Source: a virus
Lineage: Duplodnaviria > Caudoviricetes
Direction: 5' to 3' (one strand)
Virus record (IMG/VR): IMGVR_UViG_3300048999_000041
Coordinates: 1-59,012 of that record
DNA length: 59,012 nt
The position numbers were made by a program, and so were the translations under genes. Under the pieces are notes generated by a model that did not search any database, was not told the DNA's origin, and saw only the letters and a list, made by a program, of their open reading frames with translations. This document shows positions 10,162 to 58,352 of this stretch, piece after piece (position 1 is the stretch's first letter; each line of letters starts with the position of its first letter).

Positions 10162-10175
10162 AAAGGAGGTGACAT

Positions 10176-12082: not shown

Positions 12083-12122
12083 GAGCGCCGAAGCGCCATA
12101 ACATACGAAAGGAACATTCAAA

Positions 12123-14207: not shown

Positions 14208-14223
14208 GCTAGACGATAATCTG

Positions 14224-14839: not shown

Positions 14840-14857
14840 GAAAGGCGATAAAAACGA

Positions 14858-15742: not shown

Positions 15743-15747
15743 GGAAT

Positions 15748-15866
15748 TGAGTGAAATGCGGTCGAGACTTCCGGGTAAGAGTCCGGGGAAGAATTGCGCT
15801 CATAGGCCCTTACTCTCCGGGGCTGTTTGCCAATTTTTGGAAGGCATCGTAACCGGACCACCGCAT
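15748..15866 (+). ncRNA. Putative structured (pseudoknotted) intergenic RNA element
   Basis: ATGCGGT 15756/ACCGCAT 15860, TCCGG/CCGGA, GGTAAG/CTTACT, and TGAGTG 15748 pairing with loop CGCTCA 15797. Confidence 0.4.
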
Positions 15867-15891
15867 AAGATGGATGAAAGGAGACCAGGGA

Positions 15892-16440: not shown

Positions 16441-16452
16441 AAAGGAGGATGC

Positions 16453-17082: not shown

Positions 17083-17459
17083 TCAAAGTTCAAGTCAAAG
17101 GATCGTTTAACAAAACGCAAACGTTTTTGCACAGAATGCAAAGACGAGAACAATTCCGAGGACTTGAACGTTATGGTGCGAAAGGAGTAGCTGCTTTGAA
17201 AACGGCCACTCCGGAAGATTCGACACAAACCGCTAATTCGTGGTCTTACGAGATAGTTAATAAACCCGGATATTTTGCCATTCATTGGTTTAACTCAAAT
17301 CTCGACGTTCCAAGAAAAACACCGATTGCCGTATTACTTCAATACGGACATGGTACTCGCAATGGTGGGTACGTTGAGGGACGAGATTACATAAACCCAG
17401 CCTTACAGCCTATATTTGACCAGATAGCAACGGAAATGTGGAAGGAGGTGACCAAGTAA
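17079..17459 (+). CDS. Tail completion / HK97 gp10-like protein
   Basis: GVAALKTATPEDS.QTANSW, LQYGHGTRNGGYVEGRDYINPAL. Confidence 0.7.
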   Translation: MIKVQVKGSFNKTQTFLHRMQRREQFRGLERYGAKGVAALKTATPEDSTQTANSWSYEIVNKPGYFAIHWFNSNLDVPRKTPIAVLLQYGHGTRNGGYVEGRDYINPALQPIFDQIATEMWKEVTK

Positions 17460-26165: not shown

Positions 26166-26498
26166 ATGATCACAGGTAAGTTATACGACATGCTTAAGTG
26201 GGTCGCACAGGTGATTTTGCCTGCTATTGCTACCCTATATTTCACTTTGGCTGGTATTTGGAATCTCCCAAATGGCCAGCAAGTGATCGGCACTATAACC
26301 GCGGTAGATTTGTTCTTAGGGCTCATTCTCGGTATCTCTCAGACGAATTTTCAAAAAACCATTGAGGATGGCGGAGAGTTAATCGTACATCCAGACGGTA
26401 AACATGTCTTCTCTATTGACAGCAATGTTGTTGACATGGACAAGATTGGTACTAAAAAAGAAGTGAGATTTAAGGTTAAAAAAGCTCCTTCTAGTTAG
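26166..26498 (+). CDS. Holin (Dp-1 family)
   Basis: YDMLKWVAQVILPAIATLYFTLAGIW...VIGTITAVDLFLGLILGIS. Confidence 0.85.
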   Translation: MITGKLYDMLKWVAQVILPAIATLYFTLAGIWNLPNGQQVIGTITAVDLFLGLILGISQTNFQKTIEDGGELIVHPDGKHVFSIDSNVVDMDKIGTKKEVRFKVKKAPSS

Positions 26499-26500
26499 TG

Positions 26501-26530
26501 TTCGCGGGCAAAACGTCGCCTATAATGAGA
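26501..26530 (+). promoter_or_regulatory. CGCG-N14-TATAAT promoter P1
   Basis: TTCGCG-ggcaaaacgtcgcc-TATAAT-GAGA. Confidence 0.85.
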
Positions 26531-26548
26531 CCCTAACTAAGGAGCTGT

Positions 26549-26836
26549 ATGTTCGTTAAGAGCCCAAACAACGCGAAGCTGGATCGAGAGATCGCAGCTC
26601 AGTTCGACAAGCTGGAGGAGCTCAGAGATAGCCCAGAAGATTATAACAACGTCGTCGCGCGCATAGCTCAGCTGGAGAAGCTCAAGTCTGATGAAGGACT
26701 GAGGCCTCTCAGCTGGGACACTGTGCTCGTCGTCGGTGCCAACATCTTCGGCATCCTCTGGCTCGCCCGCTACGAGCGTGAGAATGTGATCAAATCGCAA
26801 ACCGCACTTCGCAACGTGATAAAGCCGAGACTTTAG
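26549..26836 (+). CDS. Cassette gene, small membrane-associated protein
   Basis: Between P1 and terminator; AAGGAG RBS; DTVLVVGANIFGILWLARYE motif. Confidence 0.8.
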   Translation: MFVKSPNNAKLDREIAAQFDKLEELRDSPEDYNNVVARIAQLEKLKSDEGLRPLSWDTVLVVGANIFGILWLARYERENVIKSQTALRNVIKPRL

Positions 26837-26860
26837 TACCGCCCGAAAAAGGATCAAAAA

Positions 26861-26896
26861 GGGAGATCGTGTTAAATACATGGTCTCTCTTTTTTT
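26861..26896 (+). terminator. Intrinsic terminator
   Basis: GGGAGATCGTGT/ACATGGTCTCTC stem + T7. Confidence 0.85.
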
Positions 26897-26955
26897 GCTT
26901 TAAAAAAATCCCGGGGGACATTTTCCACAAACTAAAAGATACTGATACGCGAAAC

Positions 26956-26984
26956 TCGCGCATATTTCATCTCCTATAATGAGA
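26956..26984 (+). promoter_or_regulatory. CGCG-N14-TATAAT promoter P2
   Basis: TCGCG-catatttcatctcc-TATAAT-GAGA; preceded by AGATACTGATACGCG box at 26937. Confidence 0.85.
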
Positions 26985-27005
26985 CCCACTATATAAGGAG
27001 ATGTT

Positions 27006-27233
27006 ATGACGAAGTGGTATGCTTTGGAAGTGGCGAAGACCGACCTCCCGCTGCTCAGATTCCTGAATGACGGATCCTTCCCTAAGACCCCGACCGGTAA
27101 ATACTATTTGGTATTTGGCGTGTCACGGGACGGGAAAGAGATCACCACTCAGATTCTGACCAAGAGCGAGATGTTCAAGCGCTACGACATGGCCAACACA
27201 AGCCCATTCCTCATCGCTTTAAAAGAGATCTAA
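27006..27233 (+). CDS. Cassette gene, hypothetical
   Basis: AAGGAG RBS, flanked by P2 and terminator. Confidence 0.8.
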   Translation: MTKWYALEVAKTDLPLLRFLNDGSFPKTPTGKYYLVFGVSRDGKEITTQILTKSEMFKRYDMANTSPFLIALKEI

Positions 27234-27264
27234 AAGCCATTGCCCCTTCGGGGGCTTTGGTTTT
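27233..27264 (+). terminator. Intrinsic terminator
   Basis: GCCCC-TTCG-GGGGC hairpin + T-rich tail. Confidence 0.8.
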
Positions 27265-27267
27265 GTC

Positions 27268-27297
27268 TTCGCGCATATTTTATCTCCTATAATAGAA
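27268..27297 (+). promoter_or_regulatory. CGCG-N14-TATAAT promoter P3
   Basis: TTCGCG-catattttatctcc-TATAAT-AGAA. Confidence 0.85.
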
Positions 27298-27323
27298 TCC
27301 AACCACATCCAAAAGGAGACCCC

Positions 27324-27551
27324 ATGACCAAGAAGATCAAGCAGATCGCTTCAGCCCCGAAGAGGATCGCTTCCCACGTCTACGTTCGTCGAGGCCGTTA
27401 CGGCGTCGCAGCTGGCATCATCGCCGGTAGCGTCATCGCACGCAACCTCGACAACGAGACGTACAAGGAGGCGATCGCCTTCATCAAGCTGAAGGGACTC
27501 GACGAAGAGTTCTTCAACCCAATGGAGTACGACTGGCAGGACATGGTCTAG
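27324..27551 (+). CDS. Cassette gene, small membrane-associated protein
   Basis: ATG 27324 after AAGGAG; hydrophobic YGVAAGIIAGSVIA. Confidence 0.8.
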   Translation: MTKKIKQIASAPKRIASHVYVRRGRYGVAAGIIAGSVIARNLDNETYKEAIAFIKLKGLDEEFFNPMEYDWQDMV

Positions 27552-27556
27552 TTCAA

Positions 27557-27588
27557 AGTGCGAATCCAAAACCTGGGTTCGCATTTTT
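27557..27588 (+). terminator. Intrinsic terminator
   Basis: AGTGCGAATCCA/TGGGTTCGCATT + T run. Confidence 0.85.
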
Positions 27589-27596
27589 CCCTGCAA

Positions 27597-27626
27597 TTCG
27601 CGTAAAAAACATGTCCTATAATAGAG
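27597..27626 (+). promoter_or_regulatory. CGCG-N14-TATAAT promoter P4
   Basis: TTCGCG-taaaaaacatgtcc-TATAAT-AGAG. Confidence 0.85.
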
Positions 27627-27705
27627 GAGAAACCGAAAGGTTTTGAACCGCCTATACTATAGTCTTCCCTTCGAGATTATATTTACAACTGGCGATTTCT
27701 TTTTT
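27623..27705 (+). ncRNA. Putative small RNA 1 (promoter-driven, ORF-less)
   Basis: AAACC-GAAA-GGTTT, CGCC/GGCG, TATAGTCT/AGATTATA helices; ends in T tract; no RBS/ORF. Confidence 0.55.
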
Positions 27706-27742
27706 CTGTCATCATATTTTAAGATAAGAAAGGTAAGTCCAA

Positions 27743-27946
27743 ATGGACGTTTATATTCTGACAAACCAAAAACCGGATTGGTCGGCACCCACGGGTGCTC
27801 CTATTTCAGTCCATTTAACACTTGACGGAGCTAAGAACGCTTTCTCAGGCGGTAAGTATTTTGACAAATGGCGTACCAAAGACAACGTACGGTGGAGTGG
27901 ACCGGACGGTTTTGGCTCCATTATCAAAATGGAACTACAAGACTAG
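27743..27946 (+). CDS. Hypothetical protein
   Basis: AAAGG RBS, 67 aa. Confidence 0.65.
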   Translation: MDVYILTNQKPDWSAPTGAPISVHLTLDGAKNAFSGGKYFDKWRTKDNVRWSGPDGFGSIIKMELQD

Positions 27947-27953
27947 ATCTTTT

Positions 27954-28027
27954 GGGCCTGTAGCTCAATTGGTCAGAGCAGCAGACTCATAATCTGTCAG
28001 ATCTGGGTTCGAGTCCCAGCAGGCCTA
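27954..28027 (+). tRNA. tRNA with CAT anticodon (probably Ile2, possibly Met)
   Basis: GGGCCTG/CAGGCCT acceptor, GCAGA-CTCATAA-TCTGT anticodon arm, TTCGAGT T-loop; no encoded CCA. Confidence 0.9.
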
Positions 28028-28052
28028 TATTTATACTCAAGATAGGAGACCC

Positions 28053-28382
28053 ATGCCCATTTCCGAAGAGCAGACCATCTGGTATCCCGGTATTTACCGC
28101 GGGTTAGAGGGGGACTACGCCACTACCCTCATAGAGGTGAAGGACGATGATCTCGTTCGTCTAGTTCAGGAACGAGCTGCGATAGATGGTGAGTGGACTA
28201 TCGAGAACTGGATTGTTGGAGATAACAATGAATACTTAATGCGCAAGATGATGGCTTGGGTCAGCGATCCAAAAAACATCCATCAGTGCGCAGAAGCAAA
28301 TTTAGTCATGAACCCCACGATCGACTGGATTTGCCGAGAGCTGGCCAATGCGTCTAAGTGGCTTTTTGACCCGGATTCGTAA
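28053..28382 (+). CDS. Hypothetical protein
   Basis: AGGAG RBS, 109 aa. Confidence 0.7.
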   Translation: MPISEEQTIWYPGIYRGLEGDYATTLIEVKDDDLVRLVQERAAIDGEWTIENWIVGDNNEYLMRKMMAWVSDPKNIHQCAEANLVMNPTIDWICRELANASKWLFDPDS

Positions 28383-28404
28383 ACAAACCAGTTCAGATAT
28401 TAGC

Positions 28405-28434
28405 TCGCGGAAAATTCCTCCCATTATACGAAGA
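28405..28434 (+). promoter_or_regulatory. Degenerate CGCG-type promoter P5
   Basis: TCGCG-N15-TATACG-AAGA; preceded by CAGATATTAG box. Confidence 0.5.
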
Positions 28435-28494
28435 GGCCGGATCGACCCTGTAGAGATCCCAACACCCTTAGCGGTGCACCTCTTTTTCTTTTTT
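28430..28494 (+). ncRNA. Putative small RNA 2
   Basis: GAAGAGG/CCTCTTT closing stem, GGATC/GATCC and CACC/GGTG hairpins, long T tail. Confidence 0.5.
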
Positions 28495-28498
28495 GGAG

Positions 28499-28528
28499 TT
28501 CGCGAAAAAAACATGCCCTATAGTGAGA
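28499..28528 (+). promoter_or_regulatory. CGCG-N14-TATAGT promoter P6
   Basis: TTCGCG-aaaaaaacatgccc-TATAGT-GAGA. Confidence 0.8.
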
Positions 28529-28591
28529 CCCATAACTGAAGCTATCCCAGCTTCGACTATAATCGCGAGATTGTAGTTGGGTTTCTTCTTT
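28525..28591 (+). ncRNA. Putative small RNA 3 (three-way junction)
   Basis: GAGACCCA/TGGGTTTC closing stem, GAAGCT/AGCTTC hairpin, GACTATAATC-GCGA-GATTGTAGTT GNRA hairpin, T tail. Confidence 0.6.
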
Positions 28592-28615
28592 GTCATCTAT
28601 TGAAAGGTTTGGTCA

Positions 28616-28777
28616 GTGCAAGCTAAGACGTCTAAGCGGCTCCATAATGTTGTCATCGAGTTCGCGAACGGCGTTACTCGGACTGTGAAGGTTAAAGCCA
28701 TTTCTCGTGAGCACGCTGAGAATCGCGCGCTTAAATTTCATCCGAATGCGATTGGAATCAAGCGTAATGCGTCGTAG
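28616..28777 (+). CDS. Small basic hypothetical protein (53 aa, not in ORF track)
   Basis: GTG after GAAAGG, open to TAG 28777. Confidence 0.5.
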   Translation: MQAKTSKRLHNVVIEFANGVTRTVKVKAISREHAENRALKFHPNAIGIKRNAS

Positions 28778-28910
28778 TCATACGACATATTGCGAAGTTT
28801 GCCCTAAGCCTTACGGCTTCTGGGCATTTATATTTGACTTGTTCATGGTTGCCATCACCGGTGGGTTTTGGCTCATCTGGATATTCGTGAGGGAGATGCG
28901 TCACCGATGA
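28767..28910 (+). CDS. Small membrane protein
   Basis: YGFWAFIFDLFMVAITGGFWLIWIFVREMR. Confidence 0.65.
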   Translation: MRRSHTTYCEVCPKPYGFWAFIFDLFMVAITGGFWLIWIFVREMRHR

Positions 28911-29057
28911 AAGAGTTTATCGGAGTAGTGCTTGCCGTTCTTGACGAGCGCAGAATGGATATTACGATCATCGTCACAACGTGTATTTGCATCGCTGCGG
29001 TATGGGCAATACTTCTCGCCTGGACTCAGTAGAGTCCACTATATTTTGAAAGGAAAT

Positions 29058-29843
29058 ATGCACATCATCAATGACGCACAGAAGCGAGTTCAGGATTTCG
29101 TTTCTGAGAACTCGTCAACGCTCCTCACTGCCGGTGGGGTTGTCGGCACAGTTACCACCGCGGTTCTGGCTGGTCGTGCCGGATACAAAGCAGCAGAGAT
29201 TGTCGCTGATCACCCGATGTTGCAAGACGTTGGGAAAGACGAAAAAGAGCTTCGTGATCGAACGAGAACCGAAAAGATTCAACTCGTCTGGTCAATCTAT
29301 ATTCCCCCCGTGATCACCGGCGGAGCAACAATCGCCAGCATTATCATGGCAAACAAGATGTCGGCTCAGCGTGCTGCCGCTCTGGCGGCTGCGTACGGTC
29401 TGTCACAGAAGCAATTCGAGGAATACAAGGCCAAGGTGGCTGAGAAGATCACTGGTCCGAAGAAGCAGCAGATCGCCGATGAGCTCGCACAGGAGAGAGT
29501 AGATCGTGCTCCGGGCGCATCGCAGATCGTCATCATCAACGGCGACGATGTTCTCTGCTTTGACGAGCCTACTGGTCGATACTTCAAGAGCTCCATGGAG
29601 AAGATCAATCGAGCGGCCAACTCAACCAACCAAGAGATCATCTCACACGGTCATGCCCGAGCTTCGCATTTCTACGAAGAGCTCGAGCTGCCGCCGACTA
29701 CCTGGTCCAACGACGTTGGTTGGAACCTGGACAACATGCTGGAGCTCGATATCACCACCACACAGGCGGATGATGGCAGGCCATGCTTGTCCATCAACTT
29801 TGCTCGCTTCCCGAACGAGGACTACCACCGCCAGGTGTATTAG
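29058..29843 (+). CDS. DUF6353-like conserved phage protein, paralog 1
   Basis: ENSSTLLTAGGVVGTVTTAVLA, ALAAAY, CFDEPTGRYFKSS; resembles 34440. Confidence 0.75.
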   Translation: MHIINDAQKRVQDFVSENSSTLLTAGGVVGTVTTAVLAGRAGYKAAEIVADHPMLQDVGKDEKELRDRTRTEKIQLVWSIYIPPVITGGATIASIIMANKMSAQRAAALAAAYGLSQKQFEEYKAKVAEKITGPKKQQIADELAQERVDRAPGASQIVIINGDDVLCFDEPTGRYFKSSMEKINRAANSTNQEIISHGHARASHFYEELELPPTTWSNDVGWNLDNMLELDITTTQADDGRPCLSINFARFPNEDYHRQVY

Positions 29844-29855
29844 GAGAGAAACCAA

Positions 29856-29963
29856 ATTTGGGCGTATGAGGATCGACAAAAAGGTATGAGGGCACTTCAT
29901 ATTTTACAAATCGATCGCCCCAGTCCCGGGGAAAGCGGAGCACGTGCGTTTCGCCGCCCAATT
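29856..29963 (+). ncRNA. Putative intergenic four-way-junction RNA
   Basis: TTGGGCG 29858/CGCCCAA 29955 closing stem enclosing GATCGA/TCGATC (with inner TATGAG/TTCATA), CCCC/GGGG and GCGGAGC/GTTTCGC hairpins; followed by TATATTT. Confidence 0.5.
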
Positions 29964-29991
29964 ATATTTTGTACCAAAAAAGGAGAGTTGT

Positions 29992-30144
29992 ATGTTTAAG
30001 AAGGACAAGCCGGTCTATAAGCGCCTTACTGACATCCGGCCCAAGTCTAAGAAGACCCCGAATAAGAAGCTCGTCGGAGCAAGTGTTGGTGTTGTTACCG
30101 TGCTGCTCGGATTGAGCGCCTTTAAGAACCGGGGACAGAAGTGA
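29992..30144 (+). CDS. Small basic membrane protein
   Basis: AAGGAG RBS; C-terminal TM. Confidence 0.6.
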   Translation: MFKKDKPVYKRLTDIRPKSKKTPNKKLVGASVGVVTVLLGLSAFKNRGQK

Positions 30145-30329
30145 TCCGTGGAGCGGTAATTCTAGCCGTGGGGTTCTCCCTCGGCTACGCCAAGGCCATG
30201 CACGATTCAGAAGATATTCGTGCTTTGCTTGCTCAGGCGGTTGATCTACTGCAGGAGCAGCAGCGAAAGTCGGAGGAAGCAGTTGATGGGACGGCAACCG
30301 AGACCCCCGAAGGAGAGACACATGAGTGA
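30141..30329 (+). CDS. Small membrane-anchored protein
   Basis: GTGA overlap; N-terminal hydrophobic segment. Confidence 0.6.
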   Translation: MIRGAVILAVGFSLGYAKAMHDSEDIRALLAQAVDLLQEQQRKSEEAVDGTATETPEGETHE

Positions 30330-30657
30330 CCGAAATGGAGAGGCCGCCGAGCTCGCTGAGCGTGCGGCTAGACAGGGAAAGCAGGCCGGTAAGAACGCCG
30401 CTCGAGCGGCTAAGGCGGTTGCAGAAGACGTGGCTGACACCGTCGTCGACGAGACCCGAGACACCTTGGACAAGCTCGAACAGACTGGAGAGGATGTCAT
30501 GGGCGCAGCTCGTCGTGTGAACCCGAGGACGCTCAGTCGTATCTCTGGTGATACTGGTATGGGCTTCCTTGCCCTGTCCGTGTCTCTATACACCGGAGCC
30601 GTCGCAATTAGCAAGTTCCGCGCAGTCTACGCCGGACGCAGTTCGGTCATCGACTAG
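30322..30657 (+). CDS. Hypothetical protein with C-terminal TM
   Basis: ATG 30322 after AAGGAG. Confidence 0.65.
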   Translation: MSDRNGEAAELAERAARQGKQAGKNAARAAKAVAEDVADTVVDETRDTLDKLEQTGEDVMGAARRVNPRTLSRISGDTGMGFLALSVSLYTGAVAISKFRAVYAGRSSVID

Positions 30658-30987
30658 ATGGATCGTGACCAATTTGAGAACATCCTGGATGCGCAAATCA
30701 AGCGTGTCCGGGATGTTCTGGTCTTAAAAGCGACCGAATACGCTAACGAAGATCGTCTCGCCAATTTCAAAAAGGCGGCGGTCCTTGCTGGTCGAGGAAT
30801 TCCGCAAATTATTGGTGGGATGATGATAAAACATACTGTGTCCATCTACGACATGATCGAAAGCGGCAAGCCATATTCTATTGATGTATGGAATGAGAAG
30901 ATCACCGACCACATCAACTACCTTATTCTTCTACGCGCCTCTTTGATCGAGAACGCTAATTCAGACCAAGGAACTTTATCTTGTTAA
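30658..30987 (+). CDS. All-alpha nucleotide-modification-associated / MazG-like protein
   Basis: KATEYA.EDRLANFK...KH...EKITDHINYLILL pattern. Confidence 0.55.
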   Translation: MDRDQFENILDAQIKRVRDVLVLKATEYANEDRLANFKKAAVLAGRGIPQIIGGMMIKHTVSIYDMIESGKPYSIDVWNEKITDHINYLILLRASLIENANSDQGTLSC

Positions 30988-31589
30988 AGAAAGTCATTAC
31001 CTATACCAACCCGTTCACCGACGAAGAGGTGAGCGAGGAGCATTACTTCCATATTTCCAAGGCCGATCTGGTCGAGATGGAGATGGAGGAGCATAATGCT
31101 ACATACGAGAAAGACGGCGAACAGCTCACCGGCATGCAGGCCAAGCTTCAACGAGTTATCGATTCCGAAGACGGCAAGGCCATTCTTTCAGAGTTTAAGG
31201 ACATCATTCGCCGGTCTTATGGCAAGAAAGACGGAGATCGCTTTATCAAGTCTTCTGAGATTTGGGCGGAGTTCTCTTCGTCCGAAGCGTATTCTCAGCT
31301 CATATTTGATCTGTGCACGGATGCTGAAATTGCTGGCGAGTTTGTCACCGGTATCATTCCCAAGAACTTGGATAAGATCGCTGAAGAGATTAAGTCGCGG
31401 GCAGATGTGGATCAAAGCGAGCCGGAGATCGACACAGCTCCTGATGTCGTTAATAATGCTAATATTTCTACAGCTTGGCCTTCCGACGAGGACTCAATCG
31501 CTCAAATTCTGTCACCCGACGAAGTGGCGGCAATGGACTCTGATGAACTGAAGTCCGGTCTTGCCGAAGGGCGCTACAAGCTCTCCTAG
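30981..31589 (+). CDS. Conserved phage protein with C-terminal MDSxE module
   Basis: MLKKVITY...YFHISKADL...SYGKK.GDRFIKS...F.SSEAYS motif conserved in this group; TTG start. Confidence 0.75.
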   Translation: MLKKVITYTNPFTDEEVSEEHYFHISKADLVEMEMEEHNATYEKDGEQLTGMQAKLQRVIDSEDGKAILSEFKDIIRRSYGKKDGDRFIKSSEIWAEFSSSEAYSQLIFDLCTDAEIAGEFVTGIIPKNLDKIAEEIKSRADVDQSEPEIDTAPDVVNNANISTAWPSDEDSIAQILSPDEVAAMDSDELKSGLAEGRYKLS

Positions 31590-31601
31590 AGAGGGGTCTC
31601 A

Positions 31602-31734
31602 CATAAAAGGGGTATAGGGCGGCTAAAGCGTCTTATATTAAACGACAGCAACGCTCGGTGCAGATGCGGTACTATTCCGTGGAGGGATATGCTCCGTCTG
31701 GTAAGGTAAACCGACGACATGCGCCCCTTTTATG
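31602..31734 (+). ncRNA. Structured RNA module upstream of the large RNA
   Basis: Perfect 11-bp closing stem CATAAAAGGGG/CCCCTTTTATG; TATAGGGCG/CGTCTTATA, TCGGT/ACCGA, CAGATG/CGTCTG helices. Confidence 0.6.
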
Positions 31735-31750
31735 CTCTATATTTCAAAAC

Positions 31751-32155
31751 GTGATGGGACACGCCCATCGCCGTAAGTCCTGACGCTTATTGTACGAAGG
31801 TTTATGTACTAAGCTAAGGTAATCGGCAAACCTTCTGAGTTAGTCGCAGAAGTTGTTGCAAACCCTGGGGTAGTGACCCAGGTACCTGAGGGATCGACTC
31901 CTCGGGTAAGTCTTATCTAGGTGCTAATCGACCTAGAATACTTCGTCGGGAACCCTACCGTTCAAGTACAAGTACCGACGTCGAAAGTATGGTTGGGTCT
32001 GCTAACAAATACCATACTAAAAATAGAACGCGCAAAAAGGGCCCAAGAGCGCGTTCGACAACACAGCAGTTCATGGCAGTAAAACAAATAACTATAGCGT
32101 TCCCGTAACATTGTTCGCTGGTACGGGCTGATTTACATCCATCAGAGCTATAGTT
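31751..32155 (+). ncRNA. Large ornate ncRNA, ROOL-like (copy A)
   Basis: ORF-free; at least 10 consecutive helices, loop-loop complementarities, and covariation with paralog at 43501; ROOL resemblance is from recall only. Confidence 0.7.
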
Positions 32156-32167
32156 CATAGATCCCAT

Positions 32168-32499
32168 CTCACGGCCGCGACCTCCAGGTAAGAGGCGAGG
32201 GGTGCAAGCGAAAGCCGGACTGGCGCCAGTTTAGGCGGCCGGATAAGCTCTGCGGAGGGATACACAACCTGCCCGCCGTGGGTAGTAAGTAGGCCTGCTC
32301 TACTAATTCAGGAAGTCCGATCCCCCAGACAATTGTGCCCTTCGTCGGTGTACGGTTGATCTGGGGGTAGGCACTTAATCTTAGATAGGTCGAGTATCCG
32401 GTAAAGGCAGGAAGGCGTACATCCAATCGCTTCCACCGTGAGGATAAAATGTCAGTAATAGGCGCGGTAGGGACTTATCAGCCGCCTGCTACCTATCTA
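32168..32499 (+). ncRNA. Further structured RNA modules (3' part of the ncRNA cluster)
   Basis: CTCACGGC/GCCGTGGG (32168/32275), CCCCCAGA/TCTGGGGG (32322/32360), TAGATAGGT/ACCTATCTA (32382/32491) closing stems with internal hairpins. Confidence 0.55.
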
Positions 32500-32501
32500 T
32501 A

Positions 32502-32531
32502 TTCGCGTAAAAAACTACTCCTATAATAGAA
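32502..32531 (+). promoter_or_regulatory. CGCG-N14-TATAAT promoter P7
   Basis: TTCGCG-taaaaaactactcc-TATAAT-AGAA. Confidence 0.85.
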
Positions 32532-32555
32532 GACCCTACCTACAAGGAGTATCTA

Positions 32556-32822
32556 ATGGAAAGCCCTGATTTTACCCCGCGCAATGTCGCGAAGTTCGTA
32601 GTCAAGGCCATTGTTGCCGGAAGAGCTGCTCAGCTCGCCGAAGACGCCATCACCGATTACACGCGGTTCGAGGAAGACGATATGATCGTCGACATCTCGA
32701 CCAGCGTGATCGGCTGGTACGTCTCGGACAAGCTGAAGCCCTACACCGACAAGATGGTCGACAAGACTGCCGACTTCATCGCCGCAAAGCGCGGTAAGAA
32801 GGACACCACAGAGACCCAGTAG
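32556..32822 (+). CDS. Cassette gene, hypothetical
   Basis: AAGGAG RBS, between P7 and terminator. Confidence 0.8.
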   Translation: MESPDFTPRNVAKFVVKAIVAGRAAQLAEDAITDYTRFEEDDMIVDISTSVIGWYVSDKLKPYTDKMVDKTADFIAAKRGKKDTTETQ

Positions 32823-32828
32823 CTGGTC

Positions 32829-32864
32829 AAATGAGGATCTGCCTAATACGCAGGTTCTCATTTT
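32829..32864 (+). terminator. Intrinsic terminator
   Basis: AAATGAGGATCTGC/GCAGGTTCTCATTT + T. Confidence 0.85.
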
Positions 32865-32867
32865 GTT

Positions 32868-32897
32868 TTCGCGTTATATTCATCTCCTATAATGAGA
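32868..32897 (+). promoter_or_regulatory. CGCG-N14-TATAAT promoter P8
   Basis: TTCGCG-ttatattcatctcc-TATAAT-GAGA. Confidence 0.85.
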
Positions 32898-32922
32898 CCT
32901 ATATCTATCTAAGGAGACCCTT

Positions 32923-33090
32923 ATGGACACCGATCGATTCCTCACCAACCTTCAGCATCAGGCTGAAGACAATCCGGTGCTGGCTCTCGGAGTTGCAGCT
33001 GCGCTGTTTACTTCGCTGAGCAAGCTCCTGAATGCCGCTGCCTGGAAGAAGGAAGTGAGTCGACGGACCCTGAAGGACCGAAAGAAGTAG
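32923..33090 (+). CDS. Cassette gene, 55-aa membrane-associated protein (not in ORF track)
   Basis: AAGGAG RBS; MDTDRFLTNLQHQAEDNPVLALGVAAALFTSLSKLLNAAAWKKEV... Confidence 0.8.
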   Translation: MDTDRFLTNLQHQAEDNPVLALGVAAALFTSLSKLLNAAAWKKEVSRRTLKDRKK

Positions 33091-33099
33091 TCACCTTAT

Positions 33100-33130
33100 A
33101 ATGAGAATCCAAAACATGGGTTCTCATTTT
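33100..33130 (+). terminator. Intrinsic terminator
   Basis: AATGAGAATCCA/TGGGTTCTCATT + TT; homologous to 27557. Confidence 0.85.
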
Positions 33131-33133
33131 GCC

Positions 33134-33163
33134 TTCGCGTAAAAAACACTCCCTATAATGAGA
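33134..33163 (+). promoter_or_regulatory. CGCG-N14-TATAAT promoter P9
   Basis: TTCGCG-taaaaaacactccc-TATAAT-GAGA. Confidence 0.85.
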
Positions 33164-33253
33164 GAGACAACTGTCGCCGATCCCCGCAAGGGGCAATCCG
33201 TCTGCTGGTTGCGACATAAAAGACTATTACCAGTGTCTTTCTTTTTCTTTTTT
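33160..33253 (+). ncRNA. Putative small RNA 4 (pseudoknot)
   Basis: GAGAGAGACA/TGTCTTTCTT closing stem, TGTCGC/GCGACA, CCCC-GCAA-GGGG, loop CTGGT pairing with ACCAG; long T tail. Confidence 0.6.
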
Positions 33254-33273
33254 GCCAAATCTAAAGGATTTTA

Positions 33274-33915
33274 ATGGAAGACTTCCCAGCCAATAGCCAG
33301 AGGGCTAGAGCGGAACAACCGCGAGAGAAGGTCGAGCGGGTTACCTCAGCTGAAGCTGTTAGGCGGAAGCGAGGGCTCGGCCATAAATTCAAGGAGACCT
33401 TTCTCCCTGGAGATACACGCAGCATGACAGAGCATGTGGTTCAGGGTGTGGTTCTTCCCGGAATCAGAGACCTGTTGTTTGATACTATTTCTGACGCAAT
33501 TCATCGTATGTTCTTCGGGGATAGTAATCGTCCGAGATACGGTGGCGGTGCGTCAATGCCATCGAGCTATGGCCGTGTGGATTATCCTCATACACCATAT
33601 AATCGTATGAACACTACCGCAGCTACGCAGCAGCCACAGCAGAGAATGCTGTCAAGAGGGGCTCGAGCTCGTCATAATTTTGACGATCTGATTATTCCTT
33701 CACGCCAAGAAGCAGAAGAAGTTCTCGACCGTATGTATGACCTGTTGTCAAAATATGGCCGTGTTGAAGTATCGGTTCTGTATGAGCTTACCGGCATCCA
33801 AAGTTCTCATACGGATATGAAGTGGGGCTGGACCAACCTCAAGGGGGCTAAGGCGGTAAAGCTTAGAAACGGAGGATTTCTTCTTGACCTGCCTGAACCA
33901 GAGGCCTTTGTATGA
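33274..33915 (+). CDS. Conserved hypothetical phage protein
   Basis: FPANS...SRQEAEEVLDRM...LYELTG...TDMKWGWTNL...LLDLPEP conserved in this group. Confidence 0.8.
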   Translation: MEDFPANSQRARAEQPREKVERVTSAEAVRRKRGLGHKFKETFLPGDTRSMTEHVVQGVVLPGIRDLLFDTISDAIHRMFFGDSNRPRYGGGASMPSSYGRVDYPHTPYNRMNTTAATQQPQQRMLSRGARARHNFDDLIIPSRQEAEEVLDRMYDLLSKYGRVEVSVLYELTGIQSSHTDMKWGWTNLKGAKAVKLRNGGFLLDLPEPEAFV

Positions 33916-46005: not shown

Positions 46006-46088
46006 GCCCGAGTGGCGGAATGGTAGACGTAGAGGACTTAAAATCCTTTGGTGGCAACACCGTGTGGGTTCGACTCCCACCTCGGGTA
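46006..46088 (+). tRNA. tRNA-Leu (TAA)
   Basis: GCCCGAG/CTCGGGT acceptor, GAGGA-CTTAAAA-TCCTT, long variable arm GGTG-GCAA-CACC, TTCGACT T-loop. Confidence 0.95.
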
Positions 46089-54962: not shown

Positions 54963-55464
54963 TTCCTATCATTGGATTAATTACGACGAAGAAAAGTTAG
55001 CGTTTCGATATAAAACGCTTCGTGCTGCTTTAGAAGGCGTAGAACAACATCGATACGCCGCGATTTGTATCGAAGAAGGGATAGTCCAAGATGATGAAAC
55101 AACTACTATCGGTATGTACATCAATCAGTGTATACAGTATAAGATGTCTCCCGAAATTGTGTTGTTTTATTCACCAAACGCCTTCGGGACGGTCGACGCG
55201 ATCGCCTATCGGTATCGACGCCTTAGAATCAGCGACCTCAAGACCGGAGTTTCGCGAACCTCTGAACATCAGTTAGAAGTATATGCTGCGTTGTTCTGTC
55301 TTGAGTATGAGCTCGATCCGTTTTCTATGGATATTGAACTCCGTATTTATCAGGATGGCGGTGTACGACAATACATCGGCGATCCGTATTTTATTAAGGG
55401 GATCATGGACAAAATTATGAAGTTTGATCAAATTCTTAATACACTTCGAGAGGAGGTGTCGTAA
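54907..55464 (+). CDS. PD-(D/E)xK exonuclease (Cas4/RecB-like, DUF2800-like)
   Basis: HAFLSPSSYHW, FGTVDAI, ISDLKTG, QLEVYAALF; probable CTG start at 54907 after AAGGAGG. Confidence 0.75.
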   Translation: MRFRKHSHLEGQHAFLSPSSYHWINYDEEKLAFRYKTLRAALEGVEQHRYAAICIEEGIVQDDETTTIGMYINQCIQYKMSPEIVLFYSPNAFGTVDAIAYRYRRLRISDLKTGVSRTSEHQLEVYAALFCLEYELDPFSMDIELRIYQDGGVRQYIGDPYFIKGIMDKIMKFDQILNTLREEVS

Positions 55465-58352
55465 TGCAAATTGAGGAAGAAGCTTATCTCGCTCATTACG
55501 GCATCCTTCGTAAGTCTGGCCGTTATCCTTGGGGGTCTGGAGCAAACCCTAGTCAGCGTAGTAAGTCGTTTCTTGATATTGTTGACGGACACAGAAAATC
55601 TGGTCTGTCGGATGCAGCAATTGCAGATTTGTATCAGCCGAGAGATGCGAATGGTAAAAAGATTCCTCCTTTCTTTACCACTAGTGATCTTCGAGCTCTT
55701 AAGTCTCGTTCGGTTAATATGCAGAAGCAGGAACAGATTCGTCGAGCCCAGACTCTGAAGGATAAGGGATATGGCGAGTCTGAGATCGCCAGGCAGATGT
55801 CATCACCCGAGAAGCAAATTAATGAATCCACGGTTCGTTCGCTTCTTGCTCCTGGTCGTAAGGAACGTCTTGATATTCTGAACGAAACCGCAGACATGCT
55901 TAAGCGTCAGGTAGAGGAAAAAAATATGATTGACGTTGGTTCTCATGTGGAGTTAGGTCTTCCGTTGGGAATGAACGAAGTACCAGTTGCAATTTCTAAA
56001 GATAAGTTCAATACTGCTTTGTCTATGCTTAAGGAAGAAGGATATTCGGTTGTAACGTTTAAGGCAAAACCGCAGGTGGGAACAGGAGAGCAGACCACCC
56101 GTAGAGTTTTACTTAAGCCCGGTCTAACACAAAAAGACGCGTTTCTCAATCAAGAGAAAATTCAGTTGATTTCAGAGAAGACTACCGACGGCGGTCGTTC
56201 ATACCAAGATGCACTATTTAAGAAGCCGTTGTCTATTGACCCTAAGCGCGTTGCGGTTAGATACGCTGAGGAAGGTGGGCGTGACGCAGACGGTGTAATT
56301 TATGTCCGTCCTGGTGTTCATGATGTTTCTTTAGGTAAATCGCAATATGCTCAGGTTCGTATTGCTGTTGGTGATACGCATTTTCTTAAGGGCATGGCTG
56401 TCTACAAAGACGATCTTCCTCATGGTGTGGATCTTATGTTCAACACCAATAAGTCTAATACGGGTAATAAGCTTGACGCTTTGAAGCCGCTTAAGACGGA
56501 TCAACACGGAAACGTTGATTGGAAGAATCCTTTCGGCGCATTTCCTAAATTAATTGGTGGTCAGCTCCTAGACGAACACGGAAACGTTAAATCGTCTATG
56601 AACATCTTAAACGGACAAGGCGACTGGGACAAGTGGGCTAATACACTTTCTAGTCAGATGCTTTCAAAACAGCAGCCTAAATTAGCGGAATCTCAACTCA
56701 ATTATACCTACGATCGTCGTAGGCAAGAATTTGAGAAAATTAAGGAACTTACTAATCCGTTAATTAAGAAAACACTACTTGAGACATTTGCGGACGAAAC
56801 CGATTCTTCGGCCGTGCATTTAAAAGCGGCAAATATGCCACGTCAGGCAACAAAGGTGATTCTTCCAGTTTCGACCTTGAAGCCCGACGAGGTCTTTGCG
56901 CCAACGTTTAAAGATGGCGAGAAAGTCGCTCTTATTCGATTTCCACATGCTGGAACTTTCGAGATTCCTGAACTTACGGTTAACAATCGTAATAGAGAAG
57001 GAAGAAGGCTTTTCAGTAATGATGGAAAGAAGATTGAAGCTCCTGATGCTATAGGTATTCACCCTAAAGTAGCGGAGCATCTTTCTGGTGCTGATTTTGA
57101 TGGCGATCATGTTGTGGTTATTCCTAACAATCGTGGGCTTATCAAAAATAGCCCACCTTTGGAAGGACTTAAGGGCTTTGATCCGCAAGCTAAATATCCG
57201 CCATATGATGGTATGAAGACCATTACTAGTGGTATATACAATGCTAAAACGGGAGAGGTTGATCACGGAACCTTTCCGGATGGGCGTAAACGTCCGCCCA
57301 AATCTAATAATAAGGGTACTGAAATGGGTAAGATCACTAATCTCATTTCGGACATGACTGTTAAAGGGGCCACAGACAGCGATCTTGCTGCAGCTGTTCG
57401 CCATTCTATGGTGGTCATCGATGCAGAGAAACACCATCTCGATTACAAGGCATCAGAACGCGAAAATGGAATTCTTGCTCTTAAGAAGCGTTATCAGGGT
57501 GTAAATGAGCAAACCGGTCAAGTTCGTGGTGCTTCGACATTGACAACGAGGGCTACTTCAGAATTACGTGTACCTAAACGTAAAGATGCGTTAATTCGTC
57601 CAGGCCTTGCTCGCTTATCTAATGCAACAGTAGACATTAAGACAGGCGCCAAAGTCTATGATTTAACTAATGAGAAGGATAAGCAAGGCAACATCAAGAA
57701 GTTTAGGTCTAGGAAATTGGCCGAAACTAATGATGCGTTCACGCTTGTCTCTGATCATGGTGGCCGTCCTATTGAGCGAATCTATGCTGAGCATTCGAAC
57801 AAGCTCAAGCTATTGGCTAATGAAGTACGTAAGGAAGCCATCTCTGTTCCTAAGTTCAAGCGTTCTCCATCTGCGGCTAAGATCTATGAGCCAGAAGTAC
57901 AGCAGTTAAAGGCTAAGCTTCGGGTGGCGTTGAAGAACGCGCCATTAGAGAGACAAGCACAGTCTCTTGCTAATGAGATCATAGGTCAGCGACGTAGAGC
58001 TAATCCCGACATGGAGAAGTCTGAGCTTAAGAAGATAAGAGGCCAGGTGTTGGAAGAGGCTCGTACACGTACTGGCGCTAAGAAGCATCGTGTGGATATA
58101 ACCGATCGCGAATGGGAAGCCATTCAGGCTAGAGCTGTCTCGGCCGAAACATTAGGGAAGATTCTACGAAATACCGATGTAGACAAGCTTAGAGAGCGAG
58201 CTACCCCTAAGGCTAAGCCGGTTATGGATTCATCTCGTATGAGTCTAGCTCGGGCGCTGCTTAACTCTGGTGCTACTCAAGCAGAAGTGGCAGATCGTTT
58301 GGGCGTCTCTATCTCAACACTGAAGTCTAGTCTTGCGGATGGAGGTGGATAG
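55464..58352 (+). CDS. Single-chain two-barrel RNA polymerase (YonO/QDE-1-like) with HTH domains
   Basis: DADGVI, AQVRI...KGMA, IRFPH, LSGADFDGD (57093-57107), MGKITNL, HSMVVIDAEK in the order seen in YonO/cellular RdRP; N- and C-terminal HTHs; N-terminal LAHYG tag. Confidence 0.8.
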   Translation: MQIEEEAYLAHYGILRKSGRYPWGSGANPSQRSKSFLDIVDGHRKSGLSDAAIADLYQPRDANGKKIPPFFTTSDLRALKSRSVNMQKQEQIRRAQTLKDKGYGESEIARQMSSPEKQINESTVRSLLAPGRKERLDILNETADMLKRQVEEKNMIDVGSHVELGLPLGMNEVPVAISKDKFNTALSMLKEEGYSVVTFKAKPQVGTGEQTTRRVLLKPGLTQKDAFLNQEKIQLISEKTTDGGRSYQDALFKKPLSIDPKRVAVRYAEEGGRDADGVIYVRPGVHDVSLGKSQYAQVRIAVGDTHFLKGMAVYKDDLPHGVDLMFNTNKSNTGNKLDALKPLKTDQHGNVDWKNPFGAFPKLIGGQLLDEHGNVKSSMNILNGQGDWDKWANTLSSQMLSKQQPKLAESQLNYTYDRRRQEFEKIKELTNPLIKKTLLETFADETDSSAVHLKAANMPRQATKVILPVSTLKPDEVFAPTFKDGEKVALIRFPHAGTFEIPELTVNNRNREGRRLFSNDGKKIEAPDAIGIHPKVAEHLSGADFDGDHVVVIPNNRGLIKNSPPLEGLKGFDPQAKYPPYDGMKTITSGIYNAKTGEVDHGTFPDGRKRPPKSNNKGTEMGKITNLISDMTVKGATDSDLAAAVRHSMVVIDAEKHHLDYKASERENGILALKKRYQGVNEQTGQVRGASTLTTRATSELRVPKRKDALIRPGLARLSNATVDIKTGAKVYDLTNEKDKQGNIKKFRSRKLAETNDAFTLVSDHGGRPIERIYAEHSNKLKLLANEVRKEAISVPKFKRSPSAAKIYEPEVQQLKAKLRVALKNAPLERQAQSLANEIIGQRRRANPDMEKSELKKIRGQVLEEARTRTGAKKHRVDITDREWEAIQARAVSAETLGKILRNTDVDKLRERATPKAKPVMDSSRMSLARALLNSGATQAEVADRLGVSISTLKSSLADGGG

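What the first reader, a model, noticed from the sequence alone, without database searches (positions are those of the whole stretch)
27597..28591. Three ORF-less small RNAs with their own promoters around the tRNA
Seen: P4, P5 and P6 are followed not by RBS+ORF but by 65-85-nt units with a closing stem, two internal hairpins (GNRA loops GAAA and GCGA in two of them) and a U tract: 27623-27705, 28430-28494, 28525-28591. Their sequences are unrelated to each other. Inference: the phage uses the cassette format for RNA payloads, i.e. early abundant sRNAs that may be decoys for defence proteins (RNA anti-CRISPR, antitoxin mimics) or antisense regulators.
Basis: partly seen in the sequence, partly recalled or inferred. 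Interest (0 to 1): 0.8.

Follow-up and report, generated by a model that had tools for sequence, protein, structure and literature searches.

The report
Promoter-proximal structured RNA modules in actinophage
A soil phage places short folded RNAs, each closed by a stop-like helix, directly behind its repeated promoter; related phages use the same frame for free-standing RNA genes, but here most of them sit in front of operons and probably act as leaders that gate transcription.

Summary
The window is a complete 59-kb siphovirus of the Gordonia-DJ / Rhodococcus-Pepy6 / Streptomyces / Lactococcus-1706 supergroup. It carries 10 copies of one promoter box (TTCGCG-N12-CCTATAAT). P4 and P6 are true copies; "P5" is a decayed relic.

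The three units exist as described, and a fourth lies at 33160-33253. Each starts at the base after TATAAT. Its first 7-10 nt pair with the bases before a U tract, enclosing two hairpins.

Only unit 3 (and less so unit 4) is significant on its own. The class is real in relatives:
- Among non-coding promoter sites, 14 of 27 have this closing stem plus U tract, against 3 of 97 coding cassettes and 2% of shuffles.
- One relatives' family has compensatory base changes.
- Another is an anticodon-less tRNA mimic.

Units 1, 3 and 4 are not ORF-less. Each lies between the only cassette promoter and a multi-gene stretch, so they are best read as terminator-closed leaders. They would yield a short RNA on termination and operon mRNA on read-through. 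Unit 2 is conserved in one relative.

A decoy or anti-CRISPR role has no support. No Rfam family matches, and no paper found describes these RNAs.

The parts
27597..27622 (+). Promoter box P4 (TTCGCG-N12-CCTATAAT)
   Evidence: One of 10 copies; 38.9 bits in the weight matrix.
27623..27707 (+). Unit 1. Weak closing stem AGAGGAG/UUUCUUU. Hairpin 27630-27643 with GAAA loop. Stem 27649-27652/27691-27694 enclosing hairpin 27658-27681. U tract 27696-27707.
   Evidence: Fold: -17.7 kcal/mol, z -1.06. Closing stem plus U tract arises in 117 of 1000 shuffles. No homolog found.
27743..28382 (+). Genes that depend on P4 through unit 1: ORF 27743-27946 (67 aa), tRNA-Met 27953-28028, ORF 28053-28382 (109 aa).
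   Evidence: ORFs. tRNA (72.5 bits). No promoter box between 27622 and 28499.
28404..28429 (+). 'P5': decayed relic of a promoter box
   Evidence: 3.8 bits against 37-45 for true sites. The orthologous place in relative G001 has a canonical box.
28430..28496 (+). Unit 2. Closing stem 28430-28436/28479-28485. Hairpins 28439-28443/28455-28459 and 28463-28466/28473-28476. U tract to 28494. It also ends the P4 operon.
   Evidence: Fold (z -0.38). Same architecture and the same stem sequences in syntenic G001. The 3' end is also seen in L088.
28499..28524 (+). Promoter box P6
   Evidence: 41.3 bits.
28525..28593 (+). Unit 3. Closing stem 28525-28532/28578-28585. Hairpin 28538-28554. Hairpin 28556-28577 with GCGA loop. 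U-rich tail 28586-28593.
   Evidence: Fold -26.9 kcal/mol, z -5.73, 0 of 200 shuffles. Terminator-like hit at 28552-28581. A positional counterpart with a different interior lies in L099.
28616..28777 (+). First gene behind unit 3 (53 aa, GTG start). It opens a stretch with no further promoter box until 32502.
   Evidence: Homologs at the same place in G001, L088, L099, L095 and L097. Promoter positions.
33134..33159 (+). Promoter box of the fourth unit
   Evidence: 38.8 bits.
33160..33253 (+). Unit 4 (not in the finding). Closing stem 33160-33169/33234-33243. GCAA hairpin 33182-33193. U tract 33244-33253. Followed by ORF 33274-33915 and the replication module, with no promoter box until 47277.
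   Evidence: Closing stem plus U tract arises in 8 of 1000 shuffles..
55464..58352 (+). YonO-like single-chain RNA polymerase with C-terminal HTH: the candidate reader of the promoter box (inference)
   Evidence: phrog_4291, E = 0. Weak HTH hits. Homologs in 250 phage records. Described as a putative RNAP in bioRxiv 10.1101/842583 (passages read).

Best explanation
Units 1, 3 and 4 are the first 65-95 nt of transcripts started by the phage's cassette promoter.

Anatomy. Transcription seems to begin at the base right after CCTATAAT. The first 7-10 nt pair with the bases just before a U tract and enclose two hairpins. This gives a promoter-proximal, terminator-like module whose two ends are sealed in one helix.

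Proposed working. Each unit is the only cassette-promoter route to a multi-gene stretch:
- unit 1 leads to ORF67, tRNA-Met and ORF109;
- unit 3 leads to the 28616-32480 operon;
- unit 4 leads to the 14-kb replication module.
So they work as leaders or attenuators. Polymerase that stops releases a short, structured RNA. Polymerase that reads through makes the operon mRNA, which keeps a protected 5' end.

Unit 2 is a conserved branched element. It ends the P4 operon and once had its own promoter.

The same frame is used in related phages for free-standing RNA genes, so a trans function for the released RNAs is possible but not shown.

Shown: sequence anatomy, gene order, conservation of the frame in relatives. 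Inferred: start site, termination, read-through, gating.
For: 1. All 10 promoter boxes are mapped.
- The 7 with about 20-nt leaders each drive one small ORF closed by a GAGA..UCUC hairpin plus U tract. 0 of these 7 have a closing stem from nt 1.
- The 3 with long leaders (P4, P6, 33134) are each followed by several genes with no further box.

2. Across the window and fetched relatives there are 124 distinct promoter sites.
- 97 are coding cassettes; 3 of them have a closing stem plus U tract.
- 27 are non-coding; 14 of them have one under strict criteria.
- Shuffles give 30 of 1350.
- After those 14 units come an RBS plus ORF in 8, the next promoter in 5, and something else in 1.

3. The arrangement recurs at the same operon starts with a varying interior.
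- Promoter, then stop-like RNA, then leader, then the DUF6353/phrog_2152 gene in L073/L089/L093 (a bare 33-nt hairpin), L090, L091 (Y-shaped), L074 and L075.
- Promoter, then RNA, then the homolog of ORF 28616 in L099.
- Two tandem terminators before that operon in G001 and L088.
- Relatives' homologs of gene 33274 sit right after a terminator, without a promoter.
So read-through of such terminators is a built-in feature of the lineage.

4. The 3' arms match whatever the first bases are: GAGACC with GGKUCUC, GAGAGG with CCUCUC, GAAAGAGA with UCUCUUUC, AGGAGAGCG with CGCUCUCUU. In 7 of 9 members of the relatives' conserved RNA, nt 1-4 pair 2 nt before the U run.

5. Unit 3 folds far better than shuffles (z -5.73).
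Against: - No expression data: no RNA run holds this phage. Start site, 3' ends and read-through are therefore all inferred.
- Units 1 and 2 are not significant on their own. Unit 1's closing stem is only A-U and G-U pairs.
- Branched helices are unusual as intrinsic terminators.
- No antiterminator gene was identified; only a subset of proteins was scanned.
- Free-standing RNA cassettes in relatives, some with covariation or tRNA likeness, show that the frame can carry true RNA genes. A purely cis reading may therefore miss a trans role.
- If the box is an ordinary sigma-70-type -10 element, the start would lie about 7 nt downstream and most closing stems could not form.
Confidence: 0.5

Rival explanations
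1. Trans-acting small RNAs. The units are discrete, abundant, end-sealed RNAs. Their hairpins bind or mislead host or phage proteins, as decoys for defence nucleases or as tRNA- or CRISPR-repeat mimics. The genes behind them are expressed by incidental read-through.
For: - Relatives have stand-alone cassettes of promoter, RNA and U tract followed directly by the next promoter: 5 of 14 units, three in a row in L055/L033 and L054/L032.
- A 105-130-nt RNA is conserved across Gordonia DJ phages, Rhodococcus Pepy6/Poco6 and G001. It lies under no annotated feature, is 96.7% paired, and has 5 of 21 pairs with compensatory changes; slid controls give 22-40%.
- Anticodon-less tRNA-like RNAs occur in Hydrus, Fazel and Lactococcus phage P162.
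- Repeated hairpins within single units suggest protein binding: 3 copies in L057, 2 in L099, 2-3 in L055.
- Unit 2 keeps its stems between the window and G001 while the loops differ.
Against: - Units 1, 3 and 4 have no homolog anywhere searched.
- The counterpart of unit 3 in L099 has another interior, and other relatives have a bare hairpin at operon starts.
- No Rfam family matches; CRISPR-repeat models hit only at E 4-9.
- No tandem repeats of the ToxI kind.
- No Ro/TROVE partner in the phage.
- The host, and hence its CRISPR repeats, is unknown.
Confidence: 0.25
2. 5' stabilisers only. The helix that includes nt +1 protects long operon mRNAs from 5'-end-dependent decay (RNase J, RNase E). 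The U-rich 3' arm only reflects the need to pair with a purine-rich transcript start, and little termination occurs.
For: - The closing helix starts at nt 1-2 in every scored unit.
- The long-leader promoters are exactly those in front of multi-gene stretches.
- Unit 1 and unit 3 have interrupted U tracts.
Against: - U runs of 5-11 follow the helix in nearly all relatives' units. They have the same form as the terminators that close the single-gene cassettes.
- Stand-alone units followed by a new promoter have no mRNA to protect.
Confidence: 0.13
3. No specific function, at least for units 1 and 2. They would be ordinary untranslated spacer and an ordinary operon terminator whose extra hairpins are chance features of a T-rich stretch.
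For: - Fold z-scores are -1.06 and -0.38.
- A closing stem plus U tract is found in 12% and 9% of shuffles.
- P5 is not a real promoter.
- No homolog of unit 1.
Against: - Unit 2's three stems are kept in G001, although neighbouring proteins are only about 60% identical.
- There is class-level enrichment: 14 of 27 non-coding sites against 3 of 97 coding cassettes and 2% of shuffles.
- Units 3 and 4 are individually unlikely by chance.
Confidence: 0.1

Closest known systems
Lambda PR'-tR' '6S' transcript with Q antitermination (recalled from general knowledge; not tested here)
   Same: A promoter is followed at once by a terminator, so a short RNA is made. The operon behind it needs read-through.
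   Different: No Q-like gene or qut-like site was identified. Here the terminator helix includes nt +1 and encloses extra hairpins. There are several copies per genome. The polymerase may be the phage's own.
HK022 put RNAs (recalled; not tested)
   Same: Two hairpins just downstream of promoters that head long operons crossing terminators.
   Different: put has no closing helix and no U tract, and it acts by modifying host RNAP.
The 50-bp intergenic motif of cluster DJ Gordonia phages (Vardy; PMC9671010, passages read)
   Same: The same promoter box and leader (CCTATAAT GAGACCCCTAyGAAAGGA) in the same central region of small membrane-protein genes.
   Different: That note reads TATAAT as a sigma-70 -10 box and reports only copies in front of genes. 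RNA units behind the box are not mentioned.
SPbeta YonO promoter region (PMC5467207, passages read)
   Same: A YonO-type single-chain RNAP. Its mapped start lies upstream of 'an unannotated non-coding RNA', followed by a long operon.
   Different: The YonO promoter sequence is not defined in that paper. No similarity between the RNAs was tested. The host and phage type differ.
Bacterial Y RNAs (YrlA) (recalled)
   Same: About 100-nt RNAs whose 5' and 3' ends form one stem with a 3' U tail. A tRNA-like module is present in some relatives' units.
   Different: No Rfam hit. No Ro/TROVE gene in the phage. The window's own units have no tRNA-like part.
Conserved RNA of the relatives (here called DJ-RNA) and the anticodon-less tRNA-like RNA
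   Same: The same promoter, the same helix from nt +1, and the same U-tract frame as the window's units.
   Different: The window has no homolog of the DJ-RNA (model R1, E up to 1). It carries a full tRNA-Met in place of the mimic.

Membership tests
Intrinsic (Rho-independent) terminator | Stable stem ending directly at a run of U | tested here: met
   Unit 3 is flagged by the consensus scan at 28552-28581 plus TTTCTTCTTT. A closing stem of 7-10 bp followed by at least 5 T in 8 is found for all four units. The stems of units 1 and 2 are weak and occur in 9-12% of shuffles.
Intrinsic (Rho-independent) terminator | Transcripts actually end there | not testable with these tools
   No RNA holder listed.
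Cassette promoter of this phage supergroup | Match to the TTCGCG-N12-CCTATAAT box at the level of the other copies | tested here: met
   P4 scores 38.9, P6 41.3 and the 33134 box 38.8 bits. P5 scores 3.8 bits, so it does not meet the criterion.
Any Rfam family (riboswitch, sRNA, Y RNA, CRISPR repeat, ribozyme) | Score at or above the family's gathering threshold | tested here: not met
   Only the three tRNAs pass in the window. The best sub-threshold hits are ylbH at E 0.12 and CRISPR-DR at E 4-9.
RNA anti-CRISPR (repeat mimic) | Likeness to the CRISPR repeat of the host | tested here: inconclusive
   Only noise-level hits to the Rfam CRISPR-DR models. The host is unknown, so its repeats could not be compared.
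Type III antitoxin (ToxI-like) | Tandem direct repeats of about 30-40 nt | tested here: not met
   No tandem array in 26400-33400 other than 6-12-nt trifles. The only direct repeat in the region is the promoter itself.
Y RNA / YrlA | Ro (TROVE) partner and a tRNA-like domain | tested here: not met
   No TROVE match in the phage. No tRNA-model hit inside the units.
DJ-RNA family of relatives | Match to covariance model R1 | tested here: not met
   R1 finds the family in L045, L046, L057, L077, L079 and G001 (44.7 bits), but nothing in the window at E up to 1.
Lambda-type promoter-proximal terminator with antitermination | A dedicated antiterminator or a terminator-resistant polymerase | not tested
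   No Q/N-like protein was looked for systematically. The phage has its own YonO-like RNAP, whose response to terminators is unknown.

The most novel reading that the evidence does not exclude
CCTATAAT is not a host -10 box. It is the promoter of the supergroup's own YonO-like, HTH-bearing RNA polymerase, with transcription starting at the very next base.

The GAGA...UCUC-A-U(5+) helix is that polymerase's stop signal. The phages use this private start/stop frame to launch end-sealed scaffold RNAs as trans-acting tools against the host. These include an anticodon-less tRNA mimic, a conserved 110-nt RNA and lineage-specific ones such as units 1-4.

The same modules, placed before operons, would time middle and late genes.
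Probability: 0.2. Interest if true: 0.85.

Novelty: new variant of a known kind. Interest (0 to 1): 0.6.

Why it matters
If the reading holds, a supergroup of about 250 sequenced phages shares one transcription frame. These phages infect Arthrobacter, Gordonia, Streptomyces, Rhodococcus, Lactococcus and others. The frame carries either a small membrane protein, a structured RNA, or a gate in front of an operon.

Three things would follow.
- It points to unannotated RNA genes in many cultured, tractable phages, among them a covarying 110-nt RNA and a tRNA mimic without an anticodon loop.
- It offers a concrete candidate promoter and terminator for YonO-type single-chain RNA polymerases. Their promoter was left open in the founding paper (PMC5467207, passages read). 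The box is kept between phages of Actinobacteria and of Lactococcus, which is hard to explain by host sigma factors.
- It gives a testable model for how these lytic phages time their replication and late genes.

For the window itself the result is more modest: four leader-type modules of unknown effect.

Tried and rejected
Homolog searches for the window's units that found nothing.
- blastn of 27200-28800 against 50,697 phage records hit only tRNAs.
- blastn-short and nhmmer of units 1-4 against all loci held gave only 11-13-nt chance words.
- Neighbour proteins ORF67 and ORF109 have no relatives in viral contigs.
- A unit-2 pattern scan of viral contigs returned G001 plus 3 stretches that look like chance matches inside ordinary GC-rich sequence.
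- MAFFT pair alignments of unit 2 with G001 and of unit 3 with L099 were too misaligned to count pairs.

Expression. No RNA holder is listed for this phage. Laying three DNA runs gave identical or sparse cover and no informative variants in the units.

Known families. Rfam, in both modes, gave nothing for the window or for 7 relatives' loci. ARAGORN found no tRNA in the relatives' units.

Readings considered and rejected.
- Hammerhead or another ribozyme: no Rfam hit, and by eye no CUGAUGA...GAAA core (that motif is recalled).
- A small ORF in unit 1 (TTG 27643, 60 aa): the start is poorly spaced from the AGGAG, and the ORF overlaps the better ORF 27743-27946 in another frame.
- Minus-strand ORFs over the units: every gene of 120 aa or more that carries a family hit is on the + strand.

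Pfam and PHROGs on the small neighbouring proteins gave no function.

Literature. Searches for ReqiPepy6 + promoter, cluster DJ + promoter, actinobacteriophage + noncoding RNA, Deejayvirinae, YonO + promoter, and Streptomyces phage + RNA-dependent RNA polymerase found no description of these RNAs. I saw listings only, plus passages of PMC9671010, PMC13313380, PMC5467207 and bioRxiv 10.1101/842583. Summer et al. 2011 (PMC3020559) is not held and may bear on the promoter. Supplements were not seen.

Full report
WHAT THE WINDOW IS. The window is a whole IMG/VR virus record of 59,012 bp with direct terminal repeats. It is a siphovirus:
- large terminase at 5629-7380, tape measure at 17438-22231, and a ReqiPepy6-gp37-like tail protein;
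- primase-polymerase at 37215-41057 and helicase at 51895-53115.
Every ORF of 120 aa or more that carries a family hit lies on the + strand.

Its terminase is 78-79% identical to those of Streptomyces and Gordonia cluster DJ phages. Gene 33274-33915 (phrog_4079) has relatives in 249 records of Arthrobacter, Gordonia, Streptomyces, Lactococcus, Rhodococcus and other phages. The window therefore belongs to the supercluster whose hallmark is a central block of many small membrane-protein genes (PMC13313380, passages).

THE PROMOTER. TTCGCG-N12-CCTATAAT, usually followed by GAGACCC, occurs 10 times, all on the + strand: at 26501, 26955, 27268, 27597 (P4), 28499 (P6), 32502, 32868, 33134, 47277 and 47528. 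A weight matrix gives these sites 37-45 bits (leave-one-out 29-42). The next best site in the genome scores 14.5 bits. 'P5' at 28404 scores 3.8 bits, rank 21 of 117,960 positions. So P4 and P6 are real members and P5 is at best a decayed copy.

The box plus leader is the 50-bp motif noted for the DJ phage Vardy (PMC9671010, passages). I found it in Gordonia phage Secretariat and Rhodococcus phage Poco6, in Streptomyces phage OlympicHelado (11 copies), and in 37 IMG/VR stretches. It also occurs in Lactococcus phage P162, a 33% G+C phage of a different host phylum, as GTTTTACAYRCCCTATAAT (12 intergenic copies).

THE UNITS.
- Seven boxes are followed within about 20 nt by AAGGAG and an ATG. Each small ORF is then closed by a hairpin of the form GAGAnnn...nnnUCUC plus U tract.
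- Three boxes (P4, P6, 33134) are instead followed by 65-95 nt of structure. Unit 2 lies behind the P5 relic.

Taken singly, the statistics are mixed.
- Fold z-scores are -1.06, -0.38, -5.73 and -1.64 for units 1 to 4.
- A closing stem of 6 bp or more from nt 1-3 that ends at a U tract arises in 117, 86, 30 and 8 of 1000 shuffles.
- None of the seven coding cassettes has such a stem.

CONTEXT IN THE WINDOW. The units are not ORF-less.
- After unit 1 come GAAAGG and ORF 27743-27946, tRNA-Met 27953-28028 only 6 nt later, and ORF 28053-28382.
- After unit 3 come GAAAGG and ORF 28616-28777, followed by about 3.9 kb of genes up to the next box at 32502.
- After unit 4 come AAAGGA and ORF 33274-33915, followed by 14 kb of replication genes up to the next box at 47277. 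That stretch has no strong terminator.
So the three long-leader promoters are exactly the three that head multi-gene stretches, and those genes have no other cassette promoter.

RELATIVES: THE CLASS IS REAL. I pooled the window with the loci fetched from related records. These came from IMG/VR records, metagenome contigs, Secretariat and Poco6. The pool holds 124 distinct promoter sites.
- 97 have an RBS and an ORF within 50 nt. Three of these also meet the closing-stem-plus-U-tract criterion.
- 27 do not. Of these, 14 meet the criterion, against 30 of 1350 shuffles.
- Several of the remaining 13 are misses of my strict rule. Others are ordinary coding cassettes with unusual ribosome-binding sites.
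- After the 14 units come the next promoter within 30 nt (5 cases), an RBS plus ORF (8) or something else (1).

MFE folds of these units show closing helices of 6-17 bp from nt 1, enclosing one to four hairpins. Some carry repeated hairpins: 3 copies of CCCCGUUAUACGGAG in L057, 2 copies in L099, and 2-3 in L055.

ONE FAMILY WITH COVARIATION. The Secretariat unit matches 39 phage records. Of these, 27 (Gordonia and Rhodococcus phages) match over more than half its length at 74-99% identity; the other 12 match only its first 34 bases. Apart from Secretariat's own two records, no match lies under an annotated feature (regions).
- In a 10-sequence alignment my 21-pair structure is 96.7% paired.
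- 5 pairs have changes on both sides. 1 of 500 shuffles reaches that number of pairs, and none reaches the observed covariation score.
- Slid controls give 22-40% paired.
- In 7 of 9 members, nt 1-4 pair 2 nt before the U run although the inner part of the helix differs. Pepy6 and Poco6 instead have a 5'-terminal hairpin.
- A covariance model finds the family in G001 as well (44.7 bits), but not in the window.

A SECOND FAMILY. This one is tRNA-like. Rfam's tRNA model scores 42-43 bits, with a 4-nt loop in place of the anticodon loop, in Hydrus, Fazel and Lactococcus phage P162. ARAGORN calls no tRNA there. In P162 and Hydrus the element sits inside the same box, closing helix and U-tract frame and is followed by the next promoter. 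No Rfam family other than tRNA matches any unit.

RELATIVES: WHAT IS KEPT AT THE WINDOW'S OWN POSITIONS. G001 is the closest relative found. Its DUF6353 protein is 60% identical and it is syntenic with 28400-29843.
- It has a canonical box, then an RNA with the same three helices as unit 2 but different loops. The shared helices are GGAUC/GAUCC, CACC/GGUG, and a purine-rich 5' end pairing with CCUCUUUUU.
- A second hairpin terminator follows, then a leader and the operon that contains the homolog of ORF 28616.
- L088 shows the same 3' part.

L099 has box, RNA, U7, leader and the homolog of ORF 28616. Its first 11 nt match unit 3 but the interior differs.

In front of the DUF6353 gene, five further kinds of relative have a box, then a stop-like RNA, then a leader. 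The RNA ranges from a bare 33-nt hairpin to a Y-shaped unit. Homologs of gene 33274 lie directly behind a terminator, without a promoter. What is conserved at these operon starts is therefore the frame, not the interior. Read-through of such terminators must be normal for these phages.

INTERPRETATION. For units 1, 3 and 4 I favour terminator-closed leaders. They would give a short RNA when transcription stops, and an operon mRNA with a sealed 5' end when it does not (confidence about 0.5). This resembles the lambda PR'-tR' arrangement (recalled), but no antiterminator is known here.

Unit 2 is a conserved branched element at the end of the P4 operon. Nothing, however, supports a decoy, anti-CRISPR or antitoxin role.

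A WIDER LEAD. The 3' arms track the first transcript bases whatever these are. This implies that the RNA begins at or next to the base after TATAAT, and that is not sigma-70 geometry.

The phage encodes a 962-aa protein (55464-58352) of phrog_4291, E = 0. It has weak C-terminal HTH hits and homologs in 250 phage records. A preprint describes this protein as a YonO/crAss-like putative RNA polymerase with HTH domains and a DxDGD loop. That preprint does not mention promoters or terminators (10.1101/842583, passages).

Strong matches to the family occur in 13 of the 15 box-bearing records I checked. One fragment has none and one record has only a weak match. The box is also shared by phages of Actinobacteria and of Lactococcus. 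Together this makes it plausible, but unproven, that the box is this polymerase's promoter. For SPbeta YonO the promoter is undefined, and its start precedes an unannotated non-coding RNA (PMC5467207, passages).

LIMITS.
- No expression data exist for this phage.
- The host is unknown.
- Units 1, 3 and 4 have no sequence homologs.
- My class statistics depend on a simple rule of my own.
- Supplements of papers were not available.

Noticed in passing
window 33134-33253: A fourth promoter-plus-structured-unit module that the finding did not list. It has a closing stem of 10 bp, a GCAA hairpin and a U tract. It sits directly before ORF 33274-33915 and the 14-kb replication module.
   Followed up: yes
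window 55464-58352: A 962-aa YonO-like single-chain RNA polymerase (phrog_4291, E = 0) with C-terminal HTH. Homologs occur in 250 phage records. It may be the enzyme that reads the CCTATAAT box.
   Followed up: partly
L103 (Lactococcus phage P162, KJ489013.1), intergenic gaps at 7975-16460, 25414 and 31493: The same promoter box (GTTTTACAYRCCCTATAAT) in 12 intergenic copies in a 33% G+C phage of a Firmicute. The RNA cassettes there use the same closing-helix and U-tract frame.
   Followed up: partly
L045 2497-2605 (Secretariat NC_048876.1, about 31537-31645); L046 1482-1612 (Poco6); L081 384-514 (Pepy6); L047 7380-7498 minus strand (G001): An unannotated, conserved 105-130-nt RNA gene with compensatory base changes, shared by Gordonia DJ phages, Rhodococcus Pepy6/Poco6 and an uncultured relative. 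It is not in Rfam.
   Followed up: yes
L077 571-637 (Hydrus), L079 315-381 (Fazel), L103 9274-9340 (P162): tRNA-like RNAs scoring 42-43 bits on Rfam tRNA, with a 4-nt loop in place of the anticodon loop. ARAGORN does not call them, and no feature is annotated at their positions in the fetched records. They are carried in the promoter/closing-helix cassette.
   Followed up: partly
window 26856-26894, 27559-27590, 32829-32863, 33103-33130, about 47490-47528, about 47780-47818: The terminators of the single-gene cassettes share one form: a purine-rich GAGA-type 5' arm, a UCUC-type 3' arm, then (A)UUUU. Their 3' arms are also complementary to the common transcript start GAGACCC.
   Followed up: partly
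window 27656-27683 and 28555-28578: Units 1 and 3 share a similar hairpin stem (ACUAUARUC ... GAGAUURUA). Its 5' arm resembles the promoter core CTATAAT. This may be chance: I estimate about 0.5 such matches expected.
   Followed up: no
L057 14480-14580; L099 490-585; L055 minus strand 7169-6842: Relatives' units carry repeated hairpins within one RNA: 3 copies of CCCCGUUAUACGGAG, 2 copies of CGCUCCCYUGUGGAGUA, and 2-3 copies of a GUGCAAAAGGCGAUAAAUUCCCACAC-like hairpin. This suggests multivalent protein binding.
   Followed up: no
window 4017-5615: A 532-aa protein with a 2'-5' RNA ligase / LigT-like phosphoesterase domain (Pfam E 9e-7) and DUF7211. It is a possible RNA-repair function in a phage that carries three tRNAs.
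   Followed up: no
window 54548-54580: The next-best weight-matrix match to the promoter box (14.5 bits), just upstream of ORF 54585-54962. It may be a weak extra promoter.
   Followed up: no
window 47203-47302: tRNA-Lys ends at 47277, exactly where the TTCGCG of the next promoter box begins. tRNA-Leu (46006-46088) and tRNA-Lys lie at the end of the long replication stretch.
   Followed up: no
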